Shown: positions 44,799-61,531 of the stretch, piece after piece
Layout: every line of letters starts with the position of its first letter
Numbering within the stretch: position 1 is the stretch's first letter
Assembly: GCA_001782165.1 (NCBI GenBank)
Contig: MFNV01000006.1
Location: forward strand, 444-64,443
DNA length: 64,000 nucleotides
Direction of reading: 5' to 3'
DNA from: Candidatus Levybacteria bacterium RIFCSPHIGHO2_01_FULL_41_15
Lineage (GTDB): Bacteria > Patescibacteriota > Microgenomatia > Levybacterales > UBA12049
Program-made: the position numbers and the translations under genes
The notes under the pieces: model-generated
The model's database searches: none
Seen by the model: the letters and a program-made list of their open reading frames with translations, nothing else
What the model was told of the DNA's origin: nothing

Positions 44799-44805
44799 TT
44801 GATTA

Positions 44806-46387: not shown

Positions 46388-46483
46388 CATGTCAAGGGTC
46401 AATTTATAGGTCCTATAAGACCTATACGACTTATAAGTCTTATATTTTCCCCCCTTGACAAGGCCTATATTATGTGTTACTAT
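46388..46483 (+). promoter_or_regulatory. Composite regulatory module P1: inverted CCCTTGACA repeats, internal palindromes, consensus sigma70-type promoter TTGACA-17-TACTAT
   Basis: tgtcaaggg at 46389..46397 is the inverse of cccttgaca at 46452..46460; ATAGGTC/GACCTAT; GACTTATAAGTC; TTGACA 46455..46460, TACTAT 46478..46483. Homologous to 49550..49634. Confidence 0.45.
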
Positions 46484-47232: not shown

Positions 47233-47306
47233 ATCCTAAATTCAAAGCACCAAGCTCCAAATAATATTTAATCTTCAAACTATCAAAATTCAAAAATATT
47301 TTGAGA

Positions 47307-47358
47307 TTAGAATTTTGTATTTGGAATTTATTTGGGATTTTTAATTTTGAATTTGAGA
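47307..47358. repeat. Second copy of the AT-rich ~55-bp repeat (see 16027..16085)
   Basis: ttagaattttgtatttggaatttatttgggatttttaattttgaatttgag. Confidence 0.5.
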
Positions 47359-47359
47359 T

Positions 47360-49558
47360 TTACCCAACCGGCTTAGTATATTTTTCCCTTGAAACCCTTA
47401 CCACCTTTTCCCTGTTTTGAGTAACGCTCTTAGGAAGAGGAAGAGTCTGACACAGAAACGGCGACTGGGTAATTCCGTCAACGGCAAGTTTTATAACTGC
47501 TTGGAAATTCCCCAACAAAAGTAAATCTTCTGCCTTAAATCTCTCCCCAAATTCTTTCCCCACATAAGCTGAGTCTTGTGCGCCAATGAGAAACGACATC
47601 ATAGTTCCTACATTTCCGAAGATTGCCGCTCTTACATCTTCGGGAACTTGTGATATATATTGATTCGCAAGTATAAGGTTAAGTCGGTATTTTCGGGCTT
47701 CCGATAAAATCTTTATAAAACTTGTTGTTGCAAAATTCTGAAACTCATCAACATAAAGATAAAAATCCCTGCGTTCTGCCTCTGGCATCGAAACTCTGTT
47801 CATCGCCGCAAGCTGAATCTTGGTAATAGCCATTGCTCCCAAAAGCGCTGCATTATCCTCACCTATTCTTCCTTGCGACAGATTCAAAATTACAATTTTT
47901 CCTTCATTCATAATCTTTTCAAAATCAACTGTTGATTTGGGATTTTTAATAATATTTCGCATAAGGTGGGACGAAGTAAACTGTCCTACTTTGTTTAAGA
48001 TCGGTGAGATAGATTCACTCTTAAGCCTCGGCTGCATTTGCTCAAACTCATTAATCCAATAGTTTCTAAGAACCCTGTCTGTCATCTTCTCAACCACTCT
48101 GTGTCTGAAGTTATCATCCGTTAAGATATCCTGTACCATAAGAAGTGTCGCATCAGGCAGACTGATTACCGATAAAAGAGCGTTTCGCAGGATATATTCA
48201 AGTCTTGGTCCCCAAGTATGACCGTATAATTTATGAAAAATTGCAACAATCCCTGAGACCACGAGTTCTTTTTGTTCAGGGTTTTCAACAGACAATGGGT
48301 TTAGCGAAAAAGCATGTATCTTGTCCGAAGGATCAAGATAAACTACATCATTTACCCGGAAAGACGGGATGTAATTTAATAATATTTCGCAAAGATCACC
48401 GTGAGGATCGATTACGCAAATCCCTTTGCGGTTTCTGAAATCACTTATTGCCATATTTGCAATAAGTGTTGATTTTCCCGTCCCTGTTTTTCCGATGAGA
48501 TAAAAATGTTTTCGCCGGTCAGCAGATTTTATTCCGAAATTTGTAACTCTGTTTTTAAACTCGGTTTGCGCAAAAAAATTAGTTTCTGTTTTTTCCTGCG
48601 AAGTTAAATATTCGGCAACCGGAAGGTTTTCGGGAGGCTCGGAAAGTATAGTTTTATGCCATGAGATATTGTGAAGTGTTGCGAATTTGGATGTCGGAAA
48701 ATGGAAAAAACTTGCAATCTCCTCAACGTTTAATATCTGATTTGCCGGAACAAACCTTTTGTTTCTTTTAACAAGAGCGCTCATCATTCTTTTTTTCTGC
48801 CAAAGATAAGTCCGGCGAAGTTGAAAACTGTTACCGGAGGGGTTATTAAAAGATGAGAAACTATTTGCAATTTCATACAGGATCTGATGACTTCTCTCCC
48901 GATCTTGCGAAGAAACAGCAATTCTTATTGCCGTTTTGAAACCGTTGAGTTTTATCTTCTCAGAAATTACCTTGGCATAGGGGTTTTGTTGAACTACTCC
49001 TGCGGAATCCTTTTTCTTAGTATTAATTGTTCTCTCTCCTGTCCTTTGCCATCCCGAACCGATTGGTATTAGCAAAACCTGTATCCAGATTTTGTCCTCT
49101 TTTTTTGCTTTTGACAGAACCGAAACAAGAGAAGACATGGGATCAACATCCTTAAAATCGCGAAAAGTCCGAAGTGGGTAAAGATATCCGGACGATATTT
49201 TCATCTGACCAAAGGTCAAATTATTTCTGTTCGAAAGAATTTCAGAAAGAGGATCCCCGCGGGTCTTTAGAAAAAGAGCTTTAGGATACTGGGAAACAAG
49301 CTGGGATTCTATAAAAGTCGTTAGAGTTTGAGGGACTGATATATAAAAATGGATAGTTTGATCTATTACTCCAATCTCCAATGTAATGGGGATTGCAAAT
49401 GAAACAAGATTTAGAACTCTTTTCTTAAGAGAAACAAGACTCGAGAGGAACTGAACCATCGCCTCCGGACTTTCTTCCCCTGTCCTTGAAGTTTTAACCT
49501 CAAGAAGAATTCTGTCGGATTTATTTTCCATAGTCTTATTATACGACATATAAGTCAC
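47360..49558 (-). CDS. Type-IV-secretion coupling-protein-like P-loop ATPase (TraG/TraD/VirD4 family-like), no N-terminal TM
   Basis: Walker A FYLIGKTGTGKST followed by CVIDPHGDL; Walker B-like YLYVDEFQNF; 732 aa. Confidence 0.55.
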   Translation of the reverse strand: MTYMSYNKTMENKSDRILLEVKTSRTGEESPEAMVQFLSSLVSLKKRVLNLVSFAIPITLEIGVIDQTIHFYISVPQTLTTFIESQLVSQYPKALFLKTRGDPLSEILSNRNNLTFGQMKISSGYLYPLRTFRDFKDVDPMSSLVSVLSKAKKEDKIWIQVLLIPIGSGWQRTGERTINTKKKDSAGVVQQNPYAKVISEKIKLNGFKTAIRIAVSSQDRERSHQILYEIANSFSSFNNPSGNSFQLRRTYLWQKKRMMSALVKRNKRFVPANQILNVEEIASFFHFPTSKFATLHNISWHKTILSEPPENLPVAEYLTSQEKTETNFFAQTEFKNRVTNFGIKSADRRKHFYLIGKTGTGKSTLIANMAISDFRNRKGICVIDPHGDLCEILLNYIPSFRVNDVVYLDPSDKIHAFSLNPLSVENPEQKELVVSGIVAIFHKLYGHTWGPRLEYILRNALLSVISLPDATLLMVQDILTDDNFRHRVVEKMTDRVLRNYWINEFEQMQPRLKSESISPILNKVGQFTSSHLMRNIIKNPKSTVDFEKIMNEGKIVILNLSQGRIGEDNAALLGAMAITKIQLAAMNRVSMPEAERRDFYLYVDEFQNFATTSFIKILSEARKYRLNLILANQYISQVPEDVRAAIFGNVGTMMSFLIGAQDSAYVGKEFGERFKAEDLLLLGNFQAVIKLAVDGITQSPFLCQTLPLPKSVTQNREKVVRVSREKYTKPVG

Positions 49559-49634
49559 TTAAGTCACTTAAGTCTTATTTCCCCTAAAAAGGCGAGCTTT
49601 TCAGCTTGACAAAGCCTATAATATTTGGTACAAT
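49550..49634 (+). promoter_or_regulatory. Module P2: (TAAGTCACT) repeats, cttatttcccc, consensus promoter TTGACA(49606..49611)-17-TACAAT(49629..49634), directed into the GC-rich island
   Basis: Homologous to P1 (cttgacaaRgcctataWtat); perfect 17-nt spacer. Confidence 0.5.
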
Positions 49635-49724
49635 CCGCAAGCTTTTTTAGCACACCCACCCAAATTGCGGGTTTGCTGTGGTAAACAGGCAGTGCTTTGG
49701 CAGAAATTGTCGCAAGATTATTTC

Positions 49725-49746
49725 TTTCAAAGAACGTTCTTTGAAA
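49725..49746 (+). promoter_or_regulatory. Perfect 10-bp inverted repeat TTTCAAAGAA-cg-TTCTTTGAAA between promoter P2 and the first island ORF; operator or 5'-UTR hairpin
   Basis: Read directly; 35 nt upstream of SD AAGGAGG at 49781. Confidence 0.45.
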
Positions 49747-49793
49747 AGGTATGCAGAAATAATTTTTTAAACCCTAAGTAAAGGAGGTGTTTC

Positions 49794-49958
49794 GTGTCAG
49801 CCACCGAAATAGGACTGCAGATTGCCATAGTACTGCTTGCCGGCATCTGGTTCCCTGTGATCCTTGCGCACTGGCGAAAGAGGCCTTTCGACGGCTTTGT
49901 TCTAGGACTGCTGGGCATAATGATAACTAGCATCCTTGAACTCTTGCTGTGGGCCTAG
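49794..49958 (+). CDS. Island ORF 1: 54-aa two-TM membrane peptide (GTG start, SD AAGGAGGTG)
   Basis: VSATEIGLQIAIVLLAGIWFPVILAHWRKRPFDGFVLGLLGIMITSILELLLWA. Confidence 0.45.
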   Translation: MSATEIGLQIAIVLLAGIWFPVILAHWRKRPFDGFVLGLLGIMITSILELLLWA

Positions 49959-50023
49959 CTTGACAACCGAATATAGCAATCGTTCTAGCCTTCGCGCAAG
50001 CGAGGAGACAAAGGAGGACTCAA

Positions 50024-50266
50024 ATGGGGAGCCTAATCGAGTTCTACTCAAGGCCCCTTGAGTGGGTTGCAAAAGTACCCCACTCAATTCACAGTCGTCC
50101 TAGCGACGATAGCGGTTGGGGGTCAGCTTGTTATGCTAGCCCTGCTGATCAAGGCCGCCATCGACTGGATCTAGCCTCCGCGGAAGCGCGTGAAGAGATC
50201 CCTGAAAGGAGGCGATGTGAAATCGTTGATCGACGCTTACCTTCTGTTTGGCAGGCTTCTGTTTAA
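50024..50266 (+). CDS. Island ORF 2: 80-aa hydrophilic protein (SD AAAGGAGG 9 nt upstream); an alternative overlapping SD+GTG ORF at 50217..50294 (25 aa)
   Basis: SD then ATG; coding status of the two overlapping frames is unresolved. Confidence 0.3.
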   Translation: MGSLIEFYSRPLEWVAKVPHSIHSRPSDDSGWGSACYASPADQGRHRLDLASAEAREEIPERRRCEIVDRRLPSVWQASV

Positions 50267-50401
50267 ACGCAGATGGCCAACCAGGCGAAGGTAAATCCAC
50301 CCAGCGCTTGTGTTCGCTCAAGTCAAGCTTCAGAAATCGCGTCTAACGCGACAAAGAGGCTGACAAGATGCGCGCACAAGCTAGCTTCAAAAGGAGGTTC
50401 C

Positions 50402-50560
50402 GTGGCTCGAAGCGAGAGAAAGAAGCGCAAACAACAGAGTAACGGAAGCGGCAAGCTGAAGCGCAGGCCAGAACCACCACCCGATGAAAAGCCCCCAGAC
50501 GAGGAGAAATCCCCTCTTTCTAGCTCAAGTAGCACAAGTAAAGGAGGCAGTCGGATGTGA
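50402..50560 (+). CDS. Island ORF 3: 52-aa basic/acidic low-complexity peptide (SD AAGGAGG at 50391 then GTG; the longer ATG form starts at 50273)
   Basis: VARSERKKRKQQSNGSGKLKRRPEPPPDEKPPDEEKSPLSSSSSTSKGGSRM; stop TGA overlaps the next GTG (GTGA). Confidence 0.35.
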   Translation: MARSERKKRKQQSNGSGKLKRRPEPPPDEKPPDEEKSPLSSSSSTSKGGSRM

Positions 50561-50688
50561 ACGGCAAGAAACGTCCTCCCAAACAACCGAATAGCGGGAA
50601 GCACCGCCATCGGCATAGGAACGGCAATAACCTTCGATTTCGCGGACCCCGAGGGATAATGACGGCAAGAAAGGAAGCGAGAAGATGA
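50557..50688 (+). CDS. Island ORF 4: 43-aa highly basic peptide
   Basis: SD AAGGAGG at 50541; VNGKKRPPKQPNSGKHRHRHRNGNNLRFRGPRGIMTARKEARR; stop overlaps the next ATG (ATGA). Confidence 0.35.
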   Translation: MNGKKRPPKQPNSGKHRHRHRNGNNLRFRGPRGIMTARKEARR

Positions 50689-50798
50689 GGCAACTCATTA
50701 TAATCGCTATCCTGACTGCTGTAGGGATCGGCATTTACCTCATCCTGCGAAAGCCGAGGAGGAAACCACGAAAGGACGCTCATGGACGAAGCGAATGA
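50685..50798 (+). CDS. Island ORF 5: 37-aa single-TM peptide
   Basis: MRQLIIIAILTAVGIGIYLILRKPRRKPRKDAHGRSE. Confidence 0.4.
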   Translation: MRQLIIIAILTAVGIGIYLILRKPRRKPRKDAHGRSE

Positions 50799-51039
50799 AG
50801 ATCGCCTGACAAAGATGCGAAAGCGCGTGGAGGTAGTCGTTGTGTTAATAGCCATCTTGGCTTTAATAAGCCTTGTGGCTTTGTTCCTCTCGATCAACAA
50901 TCGGGAAGACACGACGACACCGACACCCACACCAACGGCAACGAACCTTAATCTAGAGGAGGTGATGCCTAGCAACACTAACCTCGTATTGACAAGCCTA
51001 ACCTCGCCAATGGCGAGCGTATCACACTTGGAGGTGTGA
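50782..51039 (+). CDS. Island ORF 6: 85-aa single-TM protein with Thr/Pro linker
   Basis: ...RKRVEVVVVLIAILALISLVALFLSINNREDTTTPTPTPTATN...; overlaps ORF 5 end. Confidence 0.4.
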   Translation: MDEANEDRLTKMRKRVEVVVVLIAILALISLVALFLSINNREDTTTPTPTPTATNLNLEEVMPSNTNLVLTSLTSPMASVSHLEV

Positions 51040-51040
51040 A

Positions 51041-52054
51041 ATGACCGAAAATGTCAACAACACTGGACAACCGAATAACGACGGCAACGATGTTGTCAGC
51101 CCTCCCCCGTCTGAGCCCCCGACCACAACCGGCGGCACAAGCGGCAGGGGCAACAGTGACCGCAACGGTGGTGGCACATCAGCGCTTTCTCCTGTACATT
51201 GGGCGTTCATTGTCATGGCAATGGCCGCTATCGCACTAGCCGCCTTCATCCTGGTGGATGCTCTCAGCGGCAGCGGCAACGGATCGACGGCGGCCAACGC
51301 GACCACGACACCGGCATCACCGGCTGCTCTGACCATGGTGTCCTTTCCAACCCTGACGCCCGCGGCTGCAGGCACTGGCACGATTCCCGATCTCCCCAAG
51401 GACGCTTCTCACGGGAAGTGGACCATTAAGGAGAACGCGGCCATCGACAGCGACCCTATCGTGAGAGACGTACTCGACCGGCTTGAGGATCCGAATCCCA
51501 GCCAGTGGAAGTATTTCCCGAACGTCGGAAACCCGGATCGTCCGGATTTCCCGTCTGAGCCTGACCGGCCAGCACCATGGGGCGCTGAATACGGCGTAGC
51601 AAACGTGCCGTTCTGTCAGCAGGACATGCGGTGCGACTTCCAAGTTCCGGGCTGGAGCTACCGTCTTGTGACGGCCGACTACGGCTTTCTGGACAGGACA
51701 TGCCAGAACGACGGCACCAAGGGATGCTTGCTTTTGCTCATCAACGTGAGCGATCAATCATTCACCTGGCGCAACCAGATGGCCGACAACGGCTTTACGG
51801 TTCACGGTCGCTACTGGGACGGTGATCATCTCGAGTGGGCTATTCTCGGACTGACGAGCCACGCCAGCGCCAACATGCTGAACCTGCCGACCTTTGCCCG
51901 TGCGGGCGAGGTCCTCAACGCAGGAGGCAGCTCAAGCAATGCCGGCGCCAACTGTGGCAACCAGCCAGAGTCTTGTGCATCCGTCGATGTACGCGTAGTC
52001 GTCCATGCGGGTGAGCGTGTGCTCGCGGAAGCGACAATCGTAGTCAACCGGTAG
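51041..52054 (+). CDS. Island ORF 7: 337-aa membrane-anchored protein: Pro/Thr/Gly-rich N-terminus, one TM, extracytoplasmic Cys-containing domain
   Basis: SD GGAGGTG then ATG one nt after ORF 6 stop; TM HWAFIVMAMAAIALAAFILV; 8 Cys in the C-terminal domain. Confidence 0.5.
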   Translation: MTENVNNTGQPNNDGNDVVSPPPSEPPTTTGGTSGRGNSDRNGGGTSALSPVHWAFIVMAMAAIALAAFILVDALSGSGNGSTAANATTTPASPAALTMVSFPTLTPAAAGTGTIPDLPKDASHGKWTIKENAAIDSDPIVRDVLDRLEDPNPSQWKYFPNVGNPDRPDFPSEPDRPAPWGAEYGVANVPFCQQDMRCDFQVPGWSYRLVTADYGFLDRTCQNDGTKGCLLLLINVSDQSFTWRNQMADNGFTVHGRYWDGDHLEWAILGLTSHASANMLNLPTFARAGEVLNAGGSSSNAGANCGNQPESCASVDVRVVVHAGERVLAEATIVVNR

Positions 52055-52600
52055 TCCGGTCGACAACACCCGAGGGCATAGTGGAGTCTTAACCCCCAAC
52101 TGAGAAGTCCACCTAGACTTGCCCTCACCCAGCAAATTTCGAGGCGGTGTAACCCCCCCCTCCGCCACCGTCTCACTTTCTAAACTCGCGTTGTACCTCC
52201 TACAACGTCGAGGCTTCCTTTTCTGGGATTTCTACAGGAAGATCGGAATGGACGCCGTTACCCAGTCCTCCCCTCCGGGGGATAACCAATAAGATATGCT
52301 GATCGAAAGATTGGCATTTTCCTGGGAGGGGCACAAGTGCGAAAGCACAGCGTTGAGATCATTTTGATTCTCTCTTGCTTCACCAATTGCGGTGATACCA
52401 AGACTGATCAATTTGATCCTTCGCTTCTGCATACCTTCCCTTTTGAGCTCATCAACCATAGGCTGGTGGATTCAAAAGGGAAATTTAAAATTTAAAATCT
52501 ATATCCTCTTTAAATTTCAAATGCTGTGTCTTCAATCTTGCAATCGAACAAAAGACGTTAAGTTTTTGCAAATGAGTACATCAGGAGGATTCCTCGCAAA

Positions 52601-52633
52601 CTTGTCGAGGAGGGGGTGAAATCCCCCGACAAG
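52601..52633 (+). promoter_or_regulatory. Strong nested hairpin cttgtcg-agg-aGGGGGtgaaatCCCCC-gacaag at the right edge of the island
   Basis: 7-bp outer stem plus 5-bp G/C inner stem. Confidence 0.35.
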
Positions 52634-52677
52634 CGAATGAGCAAAAATAGTCCGACTTCGCTTGCAAGGAGTTTTTG

Positions 52678-52701
52678 GTACTTTTGTCGACACAAAAGTA
52701 C
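52678..52701 (+). promoter_or_regulatory. 10-bp inverted repeat GTACTTTTGT-cgac-ACAAAAGTAC about 57 nt upstream of the GT-C gene ATG
   Basis: Read directly. Confidence 0.4.
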
Positions 52702-52758
52702 AGAAAAAATGTTTTATTGTTAATTGTTAATTTTTTGAATTCATTGTACATTATATTT

Positions 52759-55700
52759 ATGAGTCGCAAAATCTTAGATAATCTCCCACTTTTGGCACTT
52801 TTCTTTATAACTTTAATTCTTGCGTTTCAAAATTATACTCCGGGAACCTTTCTTTCCGGATGGGATACGCTTGCCCCTGAATTTAATTTCGGCCTTAATT
52901 TTCAAAGACTTTTCTTTGGAGTATTCAGATCCGAGCAGGGGCTCGGAGCGGTCGCAGCCCATTCACACATGTCAGATCTTCCCCGCGCAATACTATTATA
53001 CATTTTTAACTATTTTATGCCTCTTTCTTTCCTCAGATATTCCTACATATTTCTAAACTTATTTTTAGGCCCAATTGGGATGTACTATTTTCTCCAAAAG
53101 GTAGTTTTGAAAAATAAGGCTGCCTCTTTTTTGGGCGGGCTCTTTTATCTTCTAAACTTGGGTACAATGCAGCAATTTATAGTTCCTTTTGAAATGTTTG
53201 TTGCTCAATACGGAATGCTTCCATGGATATTCCTATTCGCAACCCAATATCTAAAGACACAAAACTCAAATGGAAAATATCTTTTATGGTTTGCCCTTAC
53301 GATTCTTTTTGCCTCCCCTATGGCTTATGCCGCAACTCTCTGGTATATAACATTTGCTTGCTTCTCTATATATCTTTTTACTTTATCTCTGCCAACTCTT
53401 ATTAAGAAAAACTTCTCTGTCTTTAAAAAAACAATAATTCTAATACTTTTAAGCCTTCTTATTAATTCGTTTTGGATACTTCCAAATATATATTTCGTAC
53501 TAACTTCAGGAGCTAGAGTTACCTATGCAAATATAAATACTCTCTTTTCTCCCCAAGCTTTTTTGTATAACAAAGAATTCGGCAATCTAAAAGATATTGC
53601 TCTTATCAAAAACTTTTTATTCGACTGGGGGGTCTATGCCGGAGGGGGCCAGTTCGGGAACCTTCTTCAGGTTTGGACTGAGTATTTAAACAAACCTTAT
53701 GTTTCTCTTATCGGATTTTTCTTTGCCGCCGTTGCGGTTTTGGGGATTGTTTATTCAATAATTAAAAGAAACATAATAGGTCTCTGTCTCCTGCCGGTTT
53801 TAATATTCGTCCTCTTTTTCTTAATAAATGATAATCCTCCGACTTCTTTTTTGTACAGATTTCTTCAAAGCTCCATACCGCTGTTTAAAGAAGCCTTCAG
53901 ATTTCCCGCCGATAAGGTTCTCGGCATTTTTATATTTGTCTTTGGTTTATATTTTGGTTTAGGCCAAATGGCACTTGTTGAGATTTTCAAAAAACTCCCC
54001 TCTTTCTTCGCGAGATTTGTTGTTGCACTTCAGCTTATATCAATTACTGCTCTTCTAATTTTTTATATGACCCCTGCTTTCAAAGGAAATCTGATAAGCC
54101 CTTTGATGAGAGTTAAAATTCCGAACTATTATTTTGATATTTTCTCTTACTTTGATAAGCAAACTGATAATGGAAGAATTGCAGATCTTCCCATTCACTC
54201 GCCCTGGGGATGGCAATATTATGATTGGCAGGAAAATGGACCAAGTTATCAGGGCGCAGGATTTATATGGTTTGGGGTAAAACAGCCAATCTTAAATAGA
54301 GATTTTGATAGGTGGAACCCGGCAAACGAGCAGTACTTCCGAGAAATGTCCTATGCTGTTTATTCCAAAAGGGACGATCTTTTTAAAAGGGTAATTGAGA
54401 AATACAATATCCATTATATTCTTCTGGACGAGAGTATTATTGCGCCTGAAAATGATGCACGAATTCTGTATTATGATGAGCTTAGGAAGTTTTTAGAAAA
54501 GCTTGAGAAGGAAAATTTCGCAAGACAAGATGCTCAGTTCGAGAAGGTAAAAATTTTTAAAGTGGCAAGTGGATTGAACTCTTTATATTTATTAAAAGGC
54601 AGTCCTAAAGTCTTGCCAAAAGCGAGCGCTTATTATGAGGACTTTGCATATCTTAAGTACAATGATTACAAAAGTGAGGAAAGCGGGTCGGGGACTTTTT
54701 ATCCTTTCAGAAATCTAATTGACTCTCAAAGCCATATCCTAAATGGAAGAACCAATATAACTCAAGAGGGCGCGGTTCTTAATTTCCAGAAAAAAGATAA
54801 TCTTTCTTCTCCTGACTTTGCAGAGAGTGAAAATTATATTGCTTCAGATTTGTTTCTAAAAAGGGAGGGGACCTCAGTCTCAATCCAGTTTTACCCTCAT
54901 CTTCCCTATAGAAATCTTTTGGACTCTCCTCTTTCGATAACCTCTTCATTCGACATCCCCGACAAAAATTTTATCGTAAGCATCAACGGAACCAATAATT
55001 TCAGAGTTGCAGATATTGAGGAAAATGCACCGTTCTCACTGGGGACTGTATTTCTTAACACAGGAATGGGTAATTTAATCTCAGCTTACCCACAGAATCC
55101 GGATATTGCAGTCTCTCCTGATTTTTCAGAAATCCAGTTTGGGCTTTCTGCATGTGAGGGCAGAAGCCCAGACCAAGTAGTCGGCATCGAAAGGGAGGGA
55201 AATGGATTCAGTATTTTTGGGAAAAACGCGCCAATTTGCATGAACATTCCTTTGGAAGAGATTTTCAAAGACGCGGGTCAACTTAATAATTCCGAAGTTC
55301 TCTTGACATCAAGTTTCATGCAAAGCGGTAACCCATTATCATATGTTTGCGTTGCAGATATAAAAACAGGTTCTTGTTTAAGCTATACTTTCAAGAATGT
55401 TAATCCCGGACGATTTCCCATAAATTTGAGCTATTTTGGGATTGAAAAAAATAATTTACAAAATCTTTCTATCAAAGTATTTTTGGACGCAACTCAGACG
55501 GACAAAATTGAGAGGGTTAAATATTCAAACCTAGTTTTCTCTTTGACTAAACCTATCTTTTCATCAAACCTTTCAAAAGATCTTATAAAAGAATCTCTTT
55601 CAAGCGCAGTGTTGAATCCTGCAAATAAAAGCGCTCTAGTTCCCTTCTCGGGAAATGAGCAATTAAGCCAAGATATAACGTCTTTGCCTAGAACATCTAT

Positions 55701-56586
55701 CAATTGTAATCCATCCTCACCTCTAAACCATGAGGTTTCCAAAAAAATCATAAGTAAGGCAAAGGATAATTATATTCAATACGAGTCGGTCCAAGGTACC
55801 GCCTGCGATCATTTTTCCTACCAGAATCTTTCTCAAGACCAAGGATATCTTCTGTCAATAACTTCAAGAAACATTCAGGGCCTACCACTTACCATGTGCG
55901 TCTTAAATTATGCTTCAAAACATTGTGATCTGTACACAAATCTATCAAAATCTTCAAAGTTCACTACAGATATTTTTCTGATTCCGCCAATGCAAGAAGG
56001 ACAGAAAGGGTACGATATAGATATTGCAAGTCTTGGAATAAAAGGCACCAAAAGCGTGAATGATCTTAAGTCAATCCAATTCATACCTTTTCCTTATTAC
56101 TTTTTATCTAAAATCGAAGAAGGAGAAAAACAAGAAACATCAAAAAAGACTTCAATCGAAGGTCAGAACGAAATCAACCCCTCTCTTTATAAGGTTACTT
56201 TAAACGAAAATCCCGCTGTCAACGATACTTTAGTCTTTTCAAAATCCTATCAAACAGGATGGAAAGCCTATGAGATAAAAGGCAAAAGTCAAAATTCAAA
56301 AGTCAAAAGTTTTATTGTAACAATTTTTCCTTTCCTGTTTGGTAAGGAACTTAAGAATCATGTCCTAGTCAACAATTGGGCCAATGGTTGGCAAATGGAA
56401 AATGGAAAATCGTCAATAGTCAATAATCAATCATCAATTATTATTATCTATCTCCCCCAATACCTGCAGTACCTCGGCTTTATCCTAACTTTTGGCACAT
56501 TTGTCGTTGTTATATTGAAATTGATCAAAAACAAGAAGGGGAATTTGACAGAAAATGAGGTTTCTGATAAACTACCCACAATCTAA
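52759..56586 (+). CDS. Large polytopic GT-C-fold membrane glycosyltransferase-like protein (YfhO/ArnT/PMT-like) with a ~900-aa extracytoplasmic C-terminal region and terminal TM; the ORF track starts at TTG 52675
   Basis: More than 10 TM helices in the first ~480 aa; followed by a GT2 gene, as in the csbB-yfhO arrangement. Confidence 0.55.
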   Translation: MSRKILDNLPLLALFFITLILAFQNYTPGTFLSGWDTLAPEFNFGLNFQRLFFGVFRSEQGLGAVAAHSHMSDLPRAILLYIFNYFMPLSFLRYSYIFLNLFLGPIGMYYFLQKVVLKNKAASFLGGLFYLLNLGTMQQFIVPFEMFVAQYGMLPWIFLFATQYLKTQNSNGKYLLWFALTILFASPMAYAATLWYITFACFSIYLFTLSLPTLIKKNFSVFKKTIILILLSLLINSFWILPNIYFVLTSGARVTYANINTLFSPQAFLYNKEFGNLKDIALIKNFLFDWGVYAGGGQFGNLLQVWTEYLNKPYVSLIGFFFAAVAVLGIVYSIIKRNIIGLCLLPVLIFVLFFLINDNPPTSFLYRFLQSSIPLFKEAFRFPADKVLGIFIFVFGLYFGLGQMALVEIFKKLPSFFARFVVALQLISITALLIFYMTPAFKGNLISPLMRVKIPNYYFDIFSYFDKQTDNGRIADLPIHSPWGWQYYDWQENGPSYQGAGFIWFGVKQPILNRDFDRWNPANEQYFREMSYAVYSKRDDLFKRVIEKYNIHYILLDESIIAPENDARILYYDELRKFLEKLEKENFARQDAQFEKVKIFKVASGLNSLYLLKGSPKVLPKASAYYEDFAYLKYNDYKSEESGSGTFYPFRNLIDSQSHILNGRTNITQEGAVLNFQKKDNLSSPDFAESENYIASDLFLKREGTSVSIQFYPHLPYRNLLDSPLSITSSFDIPDKNFIVSINGTNNFRVADIEENAPFSLGTVFLNTGMGNLISAYPQNPDIAVSPDFSEIQFGLSACEGRSPDQVVGIEREGNGFSIFGKNAPICMNIPLEEIFKDAGQLNNSEVLLTSSFMQSGNPLSYVCVADIKTGSCLSYTFKNVNPGRFPINLSYFGIEKNNLQNLSIKVFLDATQTDKIERVKYSNLVFSLTKPIFSSNLSKDLIKESLSSAVLNPANKSALVPFSGNEQLSQDITSLPRTSINCNPSSPLNHEVSKKIISKAKDNYIQYESVQGTACDHFSYQNLSQDQGYLLSITSRNIQGLPLTMCVLNYASKHCDLYTNLSKSSKFTTDIFLIPPMQEGQKGYDIDIASLGIKGTKSVNDLKSIQFIPFPYYFLSKIEEGEKQETSKKTSIEGQNEINPSLYKVTLNENPAVNDTLVFSKSYQTGWKAYEIKGKSQNSKVKSFIVTIFPFLFGKELKNHVLVNNWANGWQMENGKSSIVNNQSSIIIIYLPQYLQYLGFILTFGTFVVVILKLIKNKKGNLTENEVSDKLPTI

Positions 56587-58826: not shown

Positions 58827-60335
58827 TCAAATTAAATCTTTCAAAACCGCCTGAAGACTTCTGTGAGATTTGGCTGAAAGTATCTTTTTAAAGCCCATTT
58901 TTTGCGCTTCCTTGACTCTTTTTTCAAAAAATGATGTATTTCTCAATTCTCCCAAAAGACCTACTTCAGAAACGGCTACAAGACCCCACAAGGGCAGATT
59001 CTTAAAACTTGAGAAGATAGAAAGACAGACCGCAAGGTCTGAAGCCGGATCGGAAAGTTTCAGTCCTCCTGCAATGTTTACAAAAATGTCCATAGTTTCA
59101 ATCGGCAGTTTTGCCTGCTTTTGAAGAACCGCAATAAGAAGCTCGAGTCTTCTTGAATCGATCCCGCTTGCGACTCTTCGGGGAATTGGGAGTTTTGAAA
59201 AAACACAAAGAGCCTGGATTTCCACCAAAAACGGCCTTGTCCCCTCCATAGTAACCGTTAAAACCGATCCGGGAGTTTTTGAGTTTCCCTCTGTTATAAA
59301 TAAGCTCTCTATGTCTTTAACTTCAGACAATCCTTTTTCATCCATTTTAAAAATCCCCACTTCATCAACCGGACCGAACCTGTTTTTAAGGCTTCTTAAA
59401 ATGCGTGTCTGAGTGAATTTCTCGCCCTCAAAAAAAAGCAAAGTGTCTACCATATGAGATAAAACCATAGGCCCTGCCACCATTCCCTCCTTGGTGACAT
59501 GCCCTACCAAAACTGTAGGAATATTTAAGGTTTTTGCAGTTTTGATAAAAGCCATTCCCCCGTATCTAACTTGACCCACAGAGCCTGAAAGTCCCGAAAG
59601 CTTCTCAGATTCCATAGTCTGGATTGAATCTACAATTACAAAAGACGACATAAGTTCTCCAATAATTTCGCAAGCCCTGTCTGTATCATTAAGAGAGGCT
59701 ATGTATAAATTTTCATTATTGCCTCCTCCGATTCTCTGCGCTCTCATCTTTATCTGCTCTTCAGACTCTTCCCCTGAAATGTACAAAACAGGGTGCGGGA
59801 AGCTTTCAAAATTTTCGCTGTGAACATTCGCGCCACCAGCCTTTTTCTTTGAAAATGAAACTTTCTCCGCGTTGTGAACACGAAAATTTTTGTAAGCGAC
59901 CTCAGCATCTTTAAGAGCGTCATTCTCAATATGTGCTTGCCGAGTCTTCAACTTCGAACTGGATAGATTGAGCGCGATCTGAAGAAGAAGGGTAGACTTC
60001 CCGATCCCCGGATCTCCTGCGAGAAGCGTTACGCTCCCCGGAACCATTCCCCCGCCGAGAACTCCATCTGCTTCGGCAAAACCGGTTGAGATCCTATTTT
60101 TCTCCAAATACGAAATCTCACTAATCTTTTTTGCAGTTTTAGTTTTGTCTTTTTGGGAAATTGCAAACTCTGAAGTTTTGATTTTTGAACTTTGAATTTT
60201 GAATTCTCTCAGCGTATTCCACTCCCCGCATTCGGGACACTTCCCAAGAAATTTCGCAGATTCATATCCGCACTCCTGACAAACCCATGAAATCTTCGAT
60301 TTCATAATTAAAAATTTAAAATTTAAAATTGTCAC
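58827..60335 (-). CDS. radA: DNA repair protein RadA/Sms, with low-complexity in-frame insertions
   Basis: Zn-finger CQECGYESAKFLGKCPECGEWN, P-loop LLAGDPGIGKSTLLLQ, Lon-like C-terminal domain. Confidence 0.85.
   Translation of the reverse strand: MTILNFKFLIMKSKISWVCQECGYESAKFLGKCPECGEWNTLREFKIQSSKIKTSEFAISQKDKTKTAKKISEISYLEKNRISTGFAEADGVLGGGMVPGSVTLLAGDPGIGKSTLLLQIALNLSSSKLKTRQAHIENDALKDAEVAYKNFRVHNAEKVSFSKKKAGGANVHSENFESFPHPVLYISGEESEEQIKMRAQRIGGGNNENLYIASLNDTDRACEIIGELMSSFVIVDSIQTMESEKLSGLSGSVGQVRYGGMAFIKTAKTLNIPTVLVGHVTKEGMVAGPMVLSHMVDTLLFFEGEKFTQTRILRSLKNRFGPVDEVGIFKMDEKGLSEVKDIESLFITEGNSKTPGSVLTVTMEGTRPFLVEIQALCVFSKLPIPRRVASGIDSRRLELLIAVLQKQAKLPIETMDIFVNIAGGLKLSDPASDLAVCLSIFSSFKNLPLWGLVAVSEVGLLGELRNTSFFEKRVKEAQKMGFKKILSAKSHRSLQAVLKDLI
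60165..60210. repeat. GAATTT/GAACTT low-complexity repeat inside the radA 5' region (encodes REFKIQSSKIKTSEF)
   Basis: aactctgaagttttgatttttgaactttgaattttgaattctctc. Confidence 0.55.
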
Positions 60336-61459
60336 CTGTATCCTATTGGTTTTTCCTTAAGAACAGGAGACGCCAAAATTCTTCTTTTCTTAGAATCAAT
60401 TTCTATTATAACAAGATCAATTTTATCCTCCGGTTTGTAAGAAACCGTGAGGGGGGTTTTTCCCTTTCTCATCAACGCCTCCATCCCATTTCCGATATCA
60501 AAAACAATGCCCCCTGATGTTATTTCTTTCACTATTCCTGCAATCTTTTGATCTACCGAAAGGTTTTTAGTTTTTTCCTCAAATGGATCTTTTTCTAGTT
60601 TTTTAACAGAGAGGTTTACTCTCCTTCCGTTCTGATCGAAACCGATTATTTCCCCCTCAATTAAATCTCCTGTTTTGTACATTGAAAAAATATCGGTTAT
60701 TTTGTCCCAGGAAATTTCGGAGATATGAATAAAACCGTCGATTGCTCCCCTCTCGATTGGCACTGAAACAAATAAACCATAAGGAGTAACATTTGTAATC
60801 GTTGTTGTAATTTTTTCTCCAATCTTAAGACCTTTAATAGTTTGCCTAAAGTCGCCTGTCGTCACTGATTGGCTCTGAGAAAATATAATTTTGTTTGTTG
60901 CGCGATCTGCTTCAAGAATTATCGCTTTTATATGGGATCCGACCATAGAGGAAAAACCTTCTTCAAAATTTGAGGAAGCAAAAGACACCTGAGAGCCTGG
61001 AAGAAAACCCGATATCCCATTTTCTGCCGAAACCAGAAGTCCTCCTTTTATCGCCTCATTAACCACTACGTCCAAAACCTCCCTTTTTTCCTTAAGTTCT
61101 GTTACTTTAGCCCAAAGCCGGTTGTTAAGAAAACCCCGAAGAGAAACAACTGGATTACCCATTTCTGACTCCGGGTTTAGAATCTGAACATTAACTTTGT
61201 CCCCTACCGAAAGAGAAGATAAAATATTACGAAGTATTTTTTTATCTTTCTCCAAAACCACTGCTTCTGCCTTGGCATTTATATCAACCAAAACTTCTCC
61301 CGAAGTCAATTTGGTTATTTTGCCCTCAATAATGTCTCCCTTATGGGGGGTAACAAAAGAAGGTTTGCGCGAAGCCAAAAGCTGCGCCATCGACTGAGGC
61401 TTTTTGTTTGATTTAGAACTCTGAACTCTGAACTCTGAACTCTGAACTTTTTTCGCCAC
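60332..61459 (-). CDS. Ribosomal protein S1-like protein (4 S1 domains); real start is possibly the internal ATG (MAQLLAS...) with the 7-mer repeat in the 5' leader
   Basis: Repeated S1-domain pattern (GxV/I...G.G.F); the ORF-track start at 61459 is GTG. Confidence 0.65.
   Translation of the reverse strand: MAKKVQSSEFRVQSSKSNKKPQSMAQLLASRKPSFVTPHKGDIIEGKITKLTSGEVLVDINAKAEAVVLEKDKKILRNILSSLSVGDKVNVQILNPESEMGNPVVSLRGFLNNRLWAKVTELKEKREVLDVVVNEAIKGGLLVSAENGISGFLPGSQVSFASSNFEEGFSSMVGSHIKAIILEADRATNKIIFSQSQSVTTGDFRQTIKGLKIGEKITTTITNVTPYGLFVSVPIERGAIDGFIHISEISWDKITDIFSMYKTGDLIEGEIIGFDQNGRRVNLSVKKLEKDPFEEKTKNLSVDQKIAGIVKEITSGGIVFDIGNGMEALMRKGKTPLTVSYKPEDKIDLVIIEIDSKKRRILASPVLKEKPIGYR
61416..61450. 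repeat. Tandem 7-mer (GAACTCT)x5 at the 5' end of the S1 gene
   Basis: Read directly. Confidence 0.7.
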
Positions 61460-61531
61460 TCATTTATTCCTCCTTAATTTAAAGAGTGCTCCCATTGTAC
61501 CACACAATGGGGCCATGGTAAAATAAGGAAC

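What the first reader, a model, noticed from the sequence alone, without database searches (positions are those of the whole stretch)
61416..61450. GAATTCT/GAACTCT 7-mer and AAATTY microsatellites embedded in essential genes (S1, radA, argS) and in intergenic spacers
Perfect tandem 7-mers occur at the 5' end of the S1 gene ((GAACTCT)x5) and inside argS ((GAATTCT)x4 at 24012..24039). Related gaattttg/gaactttg runs lie inside argS (24861..24900) and radA (60165..60210) and in many spacers (15941..16090, 20824..20890, 21470..21600, 46240..46330, 47221..47350, 60311..60330). In coding context they translate to SEFRIQNSE, KSKFKIQNLKSK, REFKIQSSKIKTSEF and SSEFRVQSSKS. A 7-nt unit is not a multiple of 3, so gain or loss of a copy in the S1 5' region would shift the frame relative to the GTG start at 61459. 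Either the true start is the downstream ATG (MAQLLAS) and the repeat is a leader element, or this is a slipped-strand phase-variable switch.
Basis: seen in the sequence. Interest (0 to 1): 0.6.

Follow-up and report, generated by a model that had tools for sequence, protein, structure and literature searches.

The report
Seven-base repeats inside Levybacteria housekeeping genes
An uncultured groundwater bacterium (Candidatus Levybacteria) and its relatives carry many short runs of 7-base tandem repeats, some translated in frame inside housekeeping genes such as ribosomal protein S1; these look like a lineage-wide, slippage-prone microsatellite class, not an on/off switch for S1.

Summary
The repeats are real and far beyond chance. 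Period 7 is the only strongly enriched tandem period in the window and in about 480 kb of related DNA.

The S1 array (61416..61448, 4.7 perfect copies) lies inside the S1 reading frame. It sits three codons after a GTG start that has a strong Shine-Dalgarno site. It encodes part of an N-terminal tail that is predicted to be disordered.

The downstream-ATG "leader" reading is rejected. The "phase-variable switch" reading is not supported for S1. Copy number is the same in 14 contigs of this species and 27 of a sister species, and the array is base-for-base identical between these species (S1 64% identical).

The arrays do turn over. Orthologous sites in S1, RadA and ArgRS carry 7-base arrays with different units in different lineages, always net in frame. 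Two assemblies of the sister species each lack 7 nt, net, at an argS array, which breaks the frame.

Three "spacer microsatellites" are copies of a ~135-145-nt palindromic hairpin element built from inverted arrays.

Best reading: a heptanucleotide simple-sequence-repeat class across this clade, filtered by selection to stop-free orientation, in-frame length and permissive loops. A cis-RNA role at translation starts is not excluded.

The parts
61416..61448 (-). Perfect heptamer array, sense (GTTCAGA)x4.7, codons 4-15 of S1 (KVQSSEFRVQSS)
   Evidence: Identical in L001-L004 and in the sister species L005/L011.
61457..61473 (-). S1 translation initiation region: SD GGAGG 61473..61469, out-of-frame ATG 61463..61461, in-frame GTG start 61459..61457
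   Evidence: The context 'SD - 5 nt - ATG - N - RTG' is conserved in relatives down to about 30% S1 identity. The ATG-frame ORF is MSGEKSSEFRVQSSEF*.
61388..61390 (-). It begins the predicted N-terminal helix (residues 24-30).
   Evidence: No SD upstream. This is the conserved anchor in 120 homologues.
60332..61459 (-). S1-like gene, 375 aa. Residues 1-21 are predicted disordered, followed by four predicted beta-barrels.
60306..60331 (-). S1-radA spacer. Sense CAATTTTAAATTTTAAATTTTTAATT, i.e. (AATTTTA)x3, abutting the SD-less radA ATG at 60305.
   Evidence: Relatives have (AATTTTC)x4 or a full hairpin element at this place.
60171..60207 (-). Degenerate heptamer array in RadA, in the linker between the Zn ribbon and the ATPase domain (REFKIQSSKIKTSEF)
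   Evidence: Heptamer arrays with other units lie at the same site in L006, L007, L009, L016, L024, L028, L038, L078, L079.
24008..24038 (-). Perfect heptamer array in argS, sense (AATTCAG)x4.4, encoding loop residues ~471-486 (NSEFRIQNSEN)
   Evidence: Same unit in the sister species L091. A variant one unit shorter is in L093.
24862..24899 (-). Heptamer array in argS, sense (AAAATTC/AAAGTCA)x5, encoding loop residues ~186-200 (QKSKFKIQNLKSK)
   Evidence: Other units at the same site in L091 (GAGTTCG) and L092 (AAATCTC).
56277..56311 (+). Heptamer array (AAAAGTC/AAAATTC) near the C-terminus of the 1303-aa ORF 52675..56586
56388..56441 (+). Two adjoining heptamer arrays (TGGAAAA; AATCGTC/AATAGTC) in the same ORF
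15948..16093 (.). Copy 1 of the ~135-145-nt imperfect palindrome (left arm AAATTCW repeats, right arm WGAATTT repeats), between the divergent mreB and PEGA-domain genes
   Evidence: (z -2.5).
21467..21610 (.). Copy 2 of the palindromic element, between the peptidase M16 stop and the ndk start (both on the minus strand)
   Evidence: (z -4.05).
47228..47362 (.). Copy 3 of the palindromic element, between convergent genes (DUF11 protein and VirD4/TrwB-like ATPase)
   Evidence: (z -3.2).
20826..20886 (.). Two short heptamer arrays (AAATTTG; AAAATTG) between convergent genes. The predicted fold is no better than shuffles.
   Evidence: (z -0.56).
46238..46259 (-). (AAATTTT)x3 directly abutting the ATG of the minus-strand gene 45002..46237

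Best explanation
The S1 repeat is one member of a clade-wide class of heptanucleotide simple-sequence repeats in Candidatus Levybacteria and neighbouring Microgenomates-like lineages.

**How the arrays arise and change (inferred).** Arrays of about 4-6 units arise and are homogenised by strand slippage or short-patch conversion in a 7-nt register. Loops of that size are expected to escape mismatch repair, by analogy with other bacteria.

**What selection lets survive (shown).**
- Inside genes, only the orientation that has no stop codon in any frame is found. This is the A-rich strand, for example RTTCARA.
- Only net lengths that keep the reading frame are found in the consensus of every lineage.
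- Arrays sit only in permissive segments: the disordered N-tail of S1, the RadA Zn-ribbon/ATPase linker, and two surface loops of ArgRS.
- In S1 the array is translated from the SD-proximal GTG as part of that tail (shown from frame conservation).

**Why it is not a switch.** Out-of-frame slips in these housekeeping genes are deleterious and are purged. Such slips may be what the two argS variants of the sister species show.

**Behaviour over evolutionary time (shown).** An array can stay base-perfect for long periods, or be replaced wholesale by an array with another unit at the same site.

**Between genes.** The same units occur as inverted pairs forming ~110-150-nt AU-rich hairpin elements, and as U-rich runs abutting SD-less start codons (shown). 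There they may have been co-opted as intercistronic or terminator hairpins, or as ribosome landing sites (inferred, untested).
For: **Period 7 is specifically and massively enriched.**
- 8 arrays in the window and 70 in about 480 kb of non-redundant window plus related loci. Shuffles give 0, and any other period from 4 to 12 gives 0-6.
- The enrichment holds in loci whose S1 is only 28-38% identical.

**Orientation.** 44 of 70 arrays lie in stop-free frames of at least 100 aa, and all are A-rich on the sense strand. The complement TYTGAAY contains TGA.

**The arrays are translated.** The S1 tail is in frame with the SD-proximal start in 27/27 loci across 16 tail lengths.

**The sites are permissive.**
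- S1 residues 1-21 have pLDDT below 50.
- The ArgRS arrays fall in loops 190-199 and 471-488, where confidence dips (block means 76 and 64) in a model with mean pLDDT 90.
- These segments are variable and indel-rich in 120 homologues.
- Against E. coli ArgRS the arrays add only 0 and 4 residues.

**Positional persistence with unit turnover.**
- S1 start: GTTCAGA, AATCAAA, ATTCARA, AGTTCAA, ATATCAA, ACAAGTA.
- L014, L015 and L022 differ in every unit although their S1 5' regions align at 80% mean column identity together with L029.
- RadA linker: AGTTCAA, AAATCTC, GCAAAGG, AAGGATA, GAAACTN.
- ArgRS site 2: AAAATTC, GAGTTCG, AAATCTC.

**Whole-unit change.** L093 and L094 equal L091 over 2331 nt with 0 mismatches, except for a net loss of 7 nt at one argS array each.

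**No switch at S1.** Copy number is invariant in 14 + 27 contigs, and the 90% clusters hold no length variants.

**No single template.** Units differ between arrays of the same genome. This argues for local evolution of each array and against one master template.

**Literature.** Heptanucleotide units are the most abundant class of long SSRs with 5-11-nt units in many prokaryotes, and polymerase slippage has been proposed as the cause (Mrazek 2007, as summarised in PMC4679880).
Against: **Stepwise slippage should be lethal at internal sites.** In an essential gene a single-unit slip breaks the frame. How arrays inside RadA and ArgRS get homogenised or replaced while staying in frame is therefore not explained. 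It would need 3-unit steps, conversion or block replacement.

**The S1 and argS site-1 arrays are too well conserved for a neutral tail.**
- They are base-perfect and identical between two species whose argS DNA is 70% identical and whose S1-radA DNA averages about 59% identity in 45-nt windows.
- The S1 initiation region plus array is the best-conserved 45-nt stretch of that 2.7-kb comparison.
- This needs either ongoing homogenisation or nucleotide-level selection.

**Arrays cluster at S1 starts.** They lie at S1 translation starts in 22/69 loci, against 24/207 other ORF starts and about 6% expected at random. That hints at function. The counts are not phylogenetically independent.

**The two -7-nt variants may be artefacts.** They come from assemblies, not from reads.

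**Repair status unknown.** Whether these organisms have mismatch repair was not examined.
Confidence: 0.6

Rival explanations
1. The arrays are cis-acting RNA elements. They would be phased, unstructured 7-nt binding sites for an OB-fold single-strand RNA-binding protein (S1 itself or a cold-shock-type protein) that sets translation initiation. This could be S1 autoregulation at its own start, or SD-independent initiation at radA and other genes. Arrays inside coding regions would be tolerated by-products, or the same operators placed just after the start codon.
For: - Arrays lie within -150..+60 of the S1 start in 22/69 loci, against 24/207 other ORF starts and about 6% expected at random.
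- In some lineages the array is in the 5' UTR or decoy ORF rather than in the S1 tail (L043, L042, L082, L009).
- The S1 and argS site-1 arrays are base-perfect across species, beyond what a disordered peptide needs.
- The S1 5' mRNA is less structured than its shuffles (z +0.3 to +1.5).
- There are 4-5 units, and the S1 model has four beta-barrel domains.
- U-rich arrays abut the SD-less starts of radA and of gene 45002..46237.
- Most genes in the window lack an SD (by eye).
Against: - The same kind of array, with the same 4-5 copies, sits deep inside RadA and ArgRS, where no initiation occurs.
- Units differ widely between lineages, and even within one genome. A sequence-specific binder is therefore unlikely.
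- Many lineages have no array at the S1 start.
- No binding data exist, and no cold-shock gene was found in the window by a GFGF motif search.
- The enrichment test is not phylogenetically corrected.
Confidence: 0.18
2. The arrays are pieces of a small non-autonomous mobile element. This would be the ~135-145-nt palindrome, or a still smaller unit, that inserts into spacers and, in frame, into permissive parts of genes. Gene-internal arrays would be single-arm remnants or insertions. It would be analogous to REPINs, MITEs, or the cyanobacterial small dispersed repeats nested in heptamer tracts.
For: - Three copies in the window have 76% mean column identity and fold as hairpins.
- Related elements occur in at least 10 other loci, often between S1 and radA.
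- The arms co-vary: 10 of 23 pairs show compensatory changes.
- Between the close relatives L041 and L042, heptamer-containing blocks of tens of nt are present in one and absent in the other inside radA, including a 63-nt block.
- A second, GC-rich mini-insert family is nested in or next to arrays in S1, RadA and ArgRS.
Against: - No transposase, RAYT or reverse transcriptase was linked to the elements. This was not searched systematically.
- No terminal inverted repeats or target-site duplications were identified.
- Units differ between arrays of one genome. This fits local evolution better than copies of one master.
- The gene-internal arrays add little or no length relative to E. coli ArgRS.
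- Covariation of the arms is also expected from any palindrome-generating process.
Confidence: 0.12
3. The S1 repeat is a contingency locus. Slipped-strand gain or loss of a unit would switch S1, or its N-terminal isoform, ON and OFF or between the ATG and GTG starts, as an adaptive phase-variation mechanism.
For: - The unit length is not a multiple of 3.
- A change of -1 or +2 units brings the conserved upstream ATG into frame, and +1 or -2 gives no full-length product.
- Whole-unit, frame-breaking variants exist at argS arrays in the sister species.
- N-tails differ strongly within one 90% S1 cluster.
Against: - No copy-number variant of the S1 array is seen in 14 + 27 contigs or in the 90% clusters.
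- The array is identical across species with 64% S1 identity.
- All 27 lineages examined use the RTG frame and never the ATG frame.
- The ATG-N-RTG context is conserved also where there is no array. It is therefore not an adaptation to the array.
- The hosts are single-copy housekeeping genes, not surface or restriction-modification genes.
Confidence: 0.04
4. The arrays are kept for the peptides they encode. These Lys/Ser/Asn/Gln-rich flexible segments would serve as linkers or nucleic-acid-contacting tails in RNA- and DNA-binding proteins (S1, RadA, ArgRS), like the tandem repeats that create disordered regions in Borg proteins.
For: - All characterised hosts bind nucleic acids.
- The encoded segments are predicted to be disordered or loops.
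- Similar peptides (IQNSKFK, QISNLKS, KVKSQKS) recur at the same sites in many homologues.
- Borg tandem repeats are a precedent (PMC9879509; title and abstract only).
Against: - Selection on a disordered peptide does not explain perfect identity at synonymous positions.
- It does not explain why the period is 7 nt rather than a multiple of 3.
- It does not explain why the same units fill intergenic hairpins.
- Many homologues lack the peptides.
- The window's S1 peptide (VQSSEFRVQSS) is not basic.
Confidence: 0.1

Closest known systems
Heptanucleotide 'long simple sequence repeats' of prokaryotic genomes (Mrazek, Guo and Shah 2007; as summarised in PMC4679880)
   Same: - Head-to-tail repeats with a 7-nt unit, much longer than chance.
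- Seven is the favoured unit length.
- Sporadic, lineage-specific distribution.
- Polymerase or strand slippage is the proposed origin.
   Different: - Here about 60% of detected arrays (44/70) lie in reading frames, including housekeeping genes. In that survey, units that are not multiples of three were mostly outside coding regions.
- The arrays persist at orthologous protein sites across a whole candidate phylum while their unit changes.
- They also pair into hairpin elements.
- They have not, to my knowledge, been described for Candidate Phyla Radiation bacteria. Literature searches found nothing.
TAACTGA heptamer direct repeats of marine Beggiatoaceae, some Cyanobacteria and Bacteroidetes (MacGregor 2015, PMC4679880)
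   Same: - Two to six copies of a heptamer, mostly close to translation starts and often in place of an SD.
[quoted passage not shown]
- In-ORF copies occur only in the orientation without stop codons and at the periphery of proteins.
- OB-fold proteins (S1, Csp) have been proposed as binders.
   Different: - That system has one fixed unit (TAACTGA), and related heptamers are rare. Here there are many related A-rich units (RTTCARA, AAATCTC, AAAGTCA and others) that change between lineages and between sites.
- Here the S1 array lies after the start codon and is translated, and a strong SD is kept.
- Internal sites in essential enzymes are occupied.
Cyanobacterial STRR heptamer repeats and small dispersed repeats (SDR) nested in them (Mazel 1990; Elhai et al. 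2008). Recalled from memory; the papers could not be read here.
   Same: A lineage-wide family of tandem heptamers, together with a second family of very small GC-richer hairpin-like inserts that sit in or beside the heptamer tracts.
   Different: - The units differ.
- The co-occurrence here was seen inside protein-coding genes, in frame.
- Membership was not tested. The resemblance is only a lead.
Phase-variable contingency loci of Haemophilus, Neisseria and Moraxella (tetra- to heptanucleotide SSRs in or upstream of genes; background in PMC4679880)
   Same: An SSR whose unit is not a multiple of 3 lies inside an ORF near its 5' end, so a single-unit slip changes the frame.
   Different: - No polymorphism at the S1 array.
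- The hosts are housekeeping genes.
- Every lineage is in frame.
- The arrays are short (4-5 units).
REP/BIME and REPIN intergenic palindromes (Bertels and Rainey 2011, PMC3116915)
   Same: Dispersed, imperfectly palindromic intergenic elements that fold as hairpins, often lie between convergent or tandem genes, and have co-varying arms.
   Different: - The arms are built from tandem heptamers, and the unit is species-specific.
- No RAYT transposase was identified.
- The elements are AU-rich, not GC-rich.
Tandem repeats that create disordered regions in Borg proteins (Schoelmerich et al. 2023, PMC9879509; title and abstract only)
   Same: Near-perfect tandem DNA repeats inside ORFs that evolve fast between close relatives and encode disordered, low-complexity segments.
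   Different: As I recall it (not read here), Borg in-gene units are multiples of 3. Here the unit is 7 nt, so the peptide period is 7 aa per 3 units, and only total lengths that are multiples of 3 survive.

Membership tests
Phase-variable contingency locus | An SSR in an ORF or promoter whose unit change alters the frame or expression | tested here: met
   The unit is 7 nt. Simulation: 0 or +/-3 units keep GTG in frame, -1 or +2 put ATG 61463 in frame, and +1 or -2 give no full S1.
Phase-variable contingency locus | Copy-number polymorphism among closely related strains or within populations | tested here: not met
   For the S1 array: 14 contigs from at least 4 assemblies are identical, and four examined loci show 0 gaps. 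The 90% clusters hold no length variants. The sister species gives 27 contigs with one sequence. Caveat: these are assemblies, not reads. At argS arrays of the sister species, roughly 2 of about 24 contigs carry net -7-nt variants.
Phase-variable contingency locus | The host gene is dispensable or conditionally useful (surface, restriction-modification), and OFF alleles are common | tested here: not met
   The hosts are S1, ArgRS and RadA. All 27 lineages examined have S1 in frame.
Prokaryotic heptanucleotide long SSRs | Head-to-tail repeats of a 7-nt unit that are longer than expected by chance | tested here: met
   33- and 31-nt perfect runs. 5 perfect runs against 0 in 30 dinucleotide shuffles.
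Prokaryotic heptanucleotide long SSRs | Genome- or lineage-wide excess of the 7-nt period over other periods | tested here: met
   70 period-7 arrays against 0-6 for any other period from 4 to 12, in about 480 kb from window and relatives. Shuffles give 0.
Prokaryotic heptanucleotide long SSRs | Origin by replication slippage | tested here: inconclusive
   Net 7-nt differences occur in otherwise identical sequence, and all units change in concert between close relatives. This fits slippage. The variants are unverified at read level, and frame-preserving turnover inside essential genes is unexplained.
TAACTGA-type repeats (Beggiatoaceae and Cyanobacteria) | The unit sequence is TAACTGA | tested here: not met
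   The units here are GTTCAGA, AATTCAG, AAAATTC, AAAGTCA and others.
TAACTGA-type repeats (Beggiatoaceae and Cyanobacteria) | Mostly intergenic, directly upstream of start codons, in place of an SD | tested here: inconclusive
   This holds for radA and for gene 45002..46237, and for S1 in some distant lineages. However, 44/70 arrays are in ORFs, and S1 keeps a strong SD.
TAACTGA-type repeats (Beggiatoaceae and Cyanobacteria) | In-ORF copies occur only in the stop-free orientation and at the protein periphery | tested here: met
   All 44 in-frame arrays are in the A-rich, stop-free orientation. They fall in tails, linkers and loops.
REP / REPIN / MITE-type intergenic palindromes (for the three ~135-145-nt elements) | Dispersed copies with sequence similarity that fold as hairpins | tested here: met
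   76% mean column identity among 3 copies. Fold z-scores -2.5 to -4.05. Further copies in relatives. 10 of 23 pairs show compensatory changes.
REP / REPIN / MITE-type intergenic palindromes (for the three ~135-145-nt elements) | An associated RAYT or other transposase, and defined ends with target-site duplications | not tested
   No systematic search was made. None was noticed in the window's Pfam-scanned ORFs.
Known RNA families (Rfam 15) | A match to a curated covariance model | tested here: not met
   Only four tRNAs were found, both at gathering threshold and at E <= 0.1.
Borg-type in-gene tandem repeats | Unit length divisible by 3 | tested here: not met
   The unit is 7 nt.
Borg-type in-gene tandem repeats | Encode disordered regions and evolve fast between close relatives | tested here: met
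   S1 residues 1-21 have pLDDT below 50. L014, L015 and L022 show unit turnover, and L041/L042 show indels.

The most novel reading that the evidence does not exclude
In this clade most genes appear to lack a Shine-Dalgarno site. Tandem heptamers there would form a phylum-wide cis-regulatory code: unstructured 7-nt-phased landing sites, one per OB fold, for ribosomal protein S1 or a cold-shock-type protein. The array at the S1 start, together with the conserved out-of-frame decoy ATG four bases upstream of the real start, would form an autoregulatory operator for S1 synthesis. The copies inside RadA, ArgRS and other genes would be the tolerated spill-over of the process that spreads and homogenises these sites.
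Probability: 0.15. Interest if true: 0.75.

Novelty: new variant of a known kind. Interest (0 to 1): 0.45.

Why it matters
**Annotation.**
- S1 here is deposited as a 'hypothetical protein'.
- Several relatives are called from Met24, because gene callers miss the tail or its non-canonical start.
- Frame-broken argS calls in some assemblies coincide exactly with heptamer arrays.
- Anyone binning or annotating Candidate Phyla Radiation genomes should expect contig breaks, copy-number errors or real heterogeneity at these sites.

**Biology.**
- The finding extends the long-known but unexplained preference of prokaryotic microsatellites for 7-nt units to an uncultured phylum.
- It shows that such non-triplet repeats can live for long periods inside essential genes. 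They mark permissive loops and remodel them repeatedly.
- The combination of positional persistence, concerted unit change and strict frame preservation gives a clean natural data set. It could be used to work out how non-triplet repeats are homogenised without passing through lethal intermediates.
- If the arrays turn out to be binding sites at translation starts, they would give a handle on how translation initiation is organised in organisms with few SD sites.

Tried and rejected
- **Known RNA families.** Rfam at gathering threshold and at E <= 0.1 returned only four tRNAs. Nothing matched the arrays or the hairpin elements.
- **Canonical terminators.** The consensus scan was not enriched over shuffles and did not coincide with the hairpin elements. 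A terminator role stays an inference.
- **Which strand of the hairpins is selected.** G-U asymmetry favours the transcribed strand in 6 of the 7 elements downstream of S1 or radA. It favours the opposite strand at L026 and at window 21467..21610. I left it undecided.
- **SD sequestration by a leader hairpin.** The window leader CACUCUUU can pair with the SD, but this is absent in L005 and L006. Dropped.
- **'ATGAGTG' as an adaptation that buffers 7-nt slips.** The arithmetic works. However, the ATG-N-RTG context is conserved in lineages without arrays, and 27/27 lineages use the RTG frame. Rejected as an adaptation and kept as a side observation.
- **Programmed +1 frameshift on the A-run after the start.** The A-run is not conserved in L006. 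Dropped.
- **One master template per genome.** Units differ between arrays of the same locus or genome. Rejected.
- **S1 proteins annotated from Met24 as OFF alleles.** In the three loci fetched, the S1 frame is open through the array. They lack an ATG/GTG/TTG near the SD, and ATT may be the start. They are not frameshift alleles.
- **A cold-shock gene in the window as a candidate binder.** No GFGF(I/L) motif was found.
- **Reading Elhai et al. 2008.** The paper is not held.
- **An earlier error of mine.** My hand translation of the ATG-frame ORF as 55 codons was wrong. It is 16 codons.


Full report
**1. What is there**

The window comes from a Candidatus Levybacteria genome (Candidate Phyla Radiation, Microgenomates). 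The S1, RadA and ArgRS proteins are exact matches to proteins of the Rifle MAGs RIFCSPLOWO2_01_FULL_38_13 and RIFCSPHIGHO2_01_FULL_41_15.

The flagged repeat is a perfect 33-nt run at 61416..61448, which is 4.7 copies of GAACTCT on the plus strand. On the minus strand it reads (GTTCAGA)x4 + GTTCT. It forms codons 4-15 of a 375-aa ORF, 60332..61459. This ORF carries Pfam S1 domains and folds in prediction into four beta-barrels.

**2. More than chance**

- Perfect lag-7 runs number 5, against 0 in 30 dinucleotide-preserving shuffles. No other period from 4 to 15 exceeds one.
- A tolerant scan gives 10 period-7 regions.
- In about 480 kb of non-redundant sequence (window plus related loci) there are 70 period-7 arrays. 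Shuffles give none, and any other period from 4 to 12 gives 0-6.
- The excess holds in loci whose S1 is only 28-38% identical.
- This is therefore a property of a broad clade, not of this gene.

**3. The S1 start**

- A GGAGG lies 9 nt upstream of GTG 61459, and an extended -10 box (TGGTACAAT) lies about 35 nt upstream. No SD precedes the internal ATG at 61390.
- In 27 related loci the SD-proximal start is in frame with the conserved M-A-E-L-L anchor. The tail has 16 different lengths (33-111 nt). The in-frame stop count is 0/27, against 14/27 and 27/27 in the other two frames.
- The tail, and with it the repeat, is therefore translated. The 'downstream ATG, repeat is a leader' reading is rejected.
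- The AlphaFold model gives pLDDT below 50 for residues 1-21 and a helix at residues 24-30. From my own knowledge, that helix corresponds to the N-terminal helix by which E. coli S1 contacts protein S2.
- In a few lineages (L095-L097) the frame is open through the array but no ATG/GTG/TTG lies near the SD. Gene callers then start at Met24.

**4. Not a switch at S1**

- The exact 375-aa protein is on 14 contigs from at least four independent assemblies. Four loci fetched are 99.93-100% identical to the window, with no gaps.
- The 90% cluster contains no length variant.
- The sister species (L005/L011; S1 64% identical) has the same 33 nt, base for base, on 27 contigs.
- In a 2.7-kb comparison between the two species, the SD-start-array segment is the best-conserved 45-nt stretch: 0.96-1.0, against a mean of 0.59.
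- A simulation shows that -1 or +2 units would bring an out-of-frame ATG (61463) into frame, and that +1 or -2 units abolish full-length S1. No lineage uses the ATG frame, and the ATG-N-RTG context is conserved also where there is no array.

**5. The arrays do move**

At the same place in S1, other lineages carry heptamer arrays with other units:
- AATCAAA (L006)
- ATTCARA (L014)
- AGTTCAA (L015)
- ATATCAA (L022)
- ACAAGTA (L023)

L014, L015 and L022 are close relatives: their S1 5' regions align, together with L029, at 80% mean column identity, and their upstream leaders are nearly identical. Yet they differ in every unit.

The RadA linker after CPECGEWNT carries arrays of RTTCAAA, AGTTCAA, AAATCTC, GCAAAGG, AAGGATA and GAAACTN in different lineages.

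Both argS sites carry heptamer-encoded peptides in many of 120 homologues. At DNA level:
- Site 1 is (AATTCAG)n in both the window and the sister species.
- Site 2 is AAAATTC, GAGTTCG or AAATCTC in three species.

All of these are net in frame.

Two assemblies of the sister species (L093, L094) match the reference argS locus with 0 mismatches over 2331 nt, except for a net loss of 7 nt at one array each. ArgRS is thereby truncated or split. One contig of the window species ends inside the site-1 array. Assemblies alone cannot tell whether these are real minor alleles or assembler errors.

**6. Where arrays are tolerated**

- Of the 70 arrays, 44 lie in stop-free frames of at least 100 aa, and all have the A-rich strand as sense. 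The complementary TYTGAAY contains TGA. Because a 7-nt unit cycles through all three frames, the complementary orientation would hit a stop within three units.
- The ArgRS model has mean pLDDT 90. It places the two arrays in loops 190-199 and 471-488, where the 10-residue block means dip to 76 and 64.
- Against E. coli ArgRS the two array segments add 4 and 0 residues.
- A further RadA site, after the Walker A motif, holds arrays in other lineages and a unique 55-aa insert in the window.

**7. Intergenic forms**

- Three spacers (15948..16093, 21467..21610, 47228..47362) are copies, with 76% mean column identity, of a ~135-145-nt imperfect palindrome. The left arm is (AAATTCW)n and the right arm is (WGAATTT)n. 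Fold z-scores are -2.5 to -4.05.
- A profile built from them finds relatives in at least ten other loci, often exactly between S1 and radA.
- Each species uses its own unit in both arms. In a 10-sequence alignment, 10 of 23 consensus pairs show compensatory changes.
- In the window the S1-radA spacer is reduced to (AATTTTA)x3 abutting the SD-less radA ATG. A similar U-rich array abuts the ATG of gene 45002..46237.
- Canonical terminator patterns are not enriched. The strand asymmetry of the hairpins is not consistent with transcription direction. Their role is therefore inferred, not shown.

**8. Interpretation**

The simplest account that covers everything is a lineage-wide heptanucleotide SSR class.
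- Arrays arise and are homogenised in a 7-nt register.
- Selection lets survive only stop-free orientation, in-frame total length and permissive protein segments.
- Out-of-frame slips in housekeeping genes are purged.

This matches what is known for prokaryotic long SSRs, where 7-nt units dominate and slippage is the proposed cause (Mrazek 2007, via PMC4679880). It also resembles the TAACTGA repeats of Beggiatoaceae and Cyanobacteria. Those too sit at translation starts, including five copies before the S1 gene, and occur in ORFs only in the stop-free orientation at protein ends.

Three things are not explained:
- How arrays inside essential genes are homogenised or replaced without lethal intermediates.
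- Why the S1 and argS site-1 arrays are base-perfect across species whose argS DNA is 70% identical and whose S1-radA DNA averages about 59%.
- Why S1 translation starts are enriched for arrays: 22/69, against 24/207 other ORF starts and about 6% at random (not phylogenetically corrected).

These points keep alive a cis-RNA reading, in which the arrays are phased OB-fold binding sites that control initiation. The S1 5' region is less structured than its shuffles. Against it, identical-looking arrays sit deep inside RadA and ArgRS, and units differ even within one genome.

**9. Novelty**

Literature searches found no description of heptamer repeats in Levybacteria, Patescibacteria or Candidate Phyla Radiation genomes. 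The kind of element is known. New here are three things: abundance in coding regions of housekeeping genes, positional persistence with concerted unit change across a candidate phylum, and assembly into hairpin elements. I rate it a new variant of a known kind, of moderate interest.

Noticed in passing
window 49600..52650: A GC-rich island (56% GC against about 38% elsewhere). It has many short ORFs, each preceded by an AAAGGAGG-type SD. A 337-aa ORF (51041..52054) and the adjacent 1303-aa ORF (52675..56586) have no Pfam match. The island lies next to a VirD4/TrwB-like ATPase (47360..49558). It may be an integrated foreign element.
   Followed up: partly
window, all gene starts (e.g. 25456, 32125, 23045, 62004): By eye, most genes lack a Shine-Dalgarno site. 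Many have a TAnAAT -10 box only 6-10 nt before the ATG, which suggests leaderless or near-leaderless mRNAs. S1 is one of the few genes with a strong GGAGG.
   Followed up: no
window 61457..61473; L005-L048 and L082 S1 starts: The S1 start context 'SD - 5 nt - ATG (out of frame) - N - ATG/GTG/TTG (in frame)' is conserved in relatives down to about 30% S1 identity (ATGAGTG, ATGAATG, ATGGATG, ATGATTG). In most loci checked the decoy ORF is 8-16 codons long. In the window it is MSGEKSSEFRVQSSEF*, ending right after the array. It could be a conserved translational control device for S1.
   Followed up: partly
L092:~1720-1760 (ArgRS); L015, L022 and L009 S1 tails; window 3930..4073 and 44800..44900: A second family of very small GC-rich, hairpin-like inserts. 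Examples are CCCACCTCCGCTAAAGCTTCGGCGGGCAGGC and GCTCCTTCGGCGAGCTCAGGACAAGC, encoding peptides like HSASSGQ, SAKASAGRQ and FAKASRGKQ. They are nested in or next to heptamer arrays, in frame, in S1, RadA and ArgRS of many lineages. Related TTCGAC..GAGCTCAG motifs lie in two window spacers.
   Followed up: partly
window 46414..46444, 49551..49574, 18449..18472, 18643..18673: Tandem repeats of 9 nt (TATAAGACC- and CTTAAGTCA-like). At 46414..46444 and 49551..49574 they lie directly upstream of TTGACA -35 boxes. Period 9 is the only other enriched period in the window.
   Followed up: no
window ~59786..59954 (minus strand, RadA): The window's RadA has a unique insert of about 55 aa between the Walker A region and VLYISGEES. 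The insert is absent in L005 and L006. The same site holds heptamer arrays or GC-rich inserts in L008, L017, L038, L041, L042, L043 and L078.
   Followed up: partly
window 20894..21466 (minus strand): The nucleoside diphosphate kinase is 190 aa and its Pfam match is split into two stretches. This suggests an internal insert.
   Followed up: no
window 20795..20830 and 44768..44795: A short shared motif, TCGCCATTTCG(A/C)AT(G/T)TCGAATGCA(C/T)GAAAA, occurs at two spacers. It is itself partly 7-nt periodic.
   Followed up: no
L095:340..400, L096:330..400, L097:320..400: In three relatives the S1 tail is open in frame through the heptamer array, but no ATG/GTG/TTG lies near the SD. An ATT is in frame 10-11 nt after GGAGG. 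Gene callers start these proteins at Met24.
   Followed up: partly
P0250 (member of the ArgRS cluster of the sister species): One public contig ends in a translated Illumina adaptor (…KIGRASCRERV), and another (P0254) carries a 1-nt homopolymer frameshift. Some assemblies in these collections therefore contain artefacts. This tempers the weight of the -7-nt variants.
   Followed up: yes
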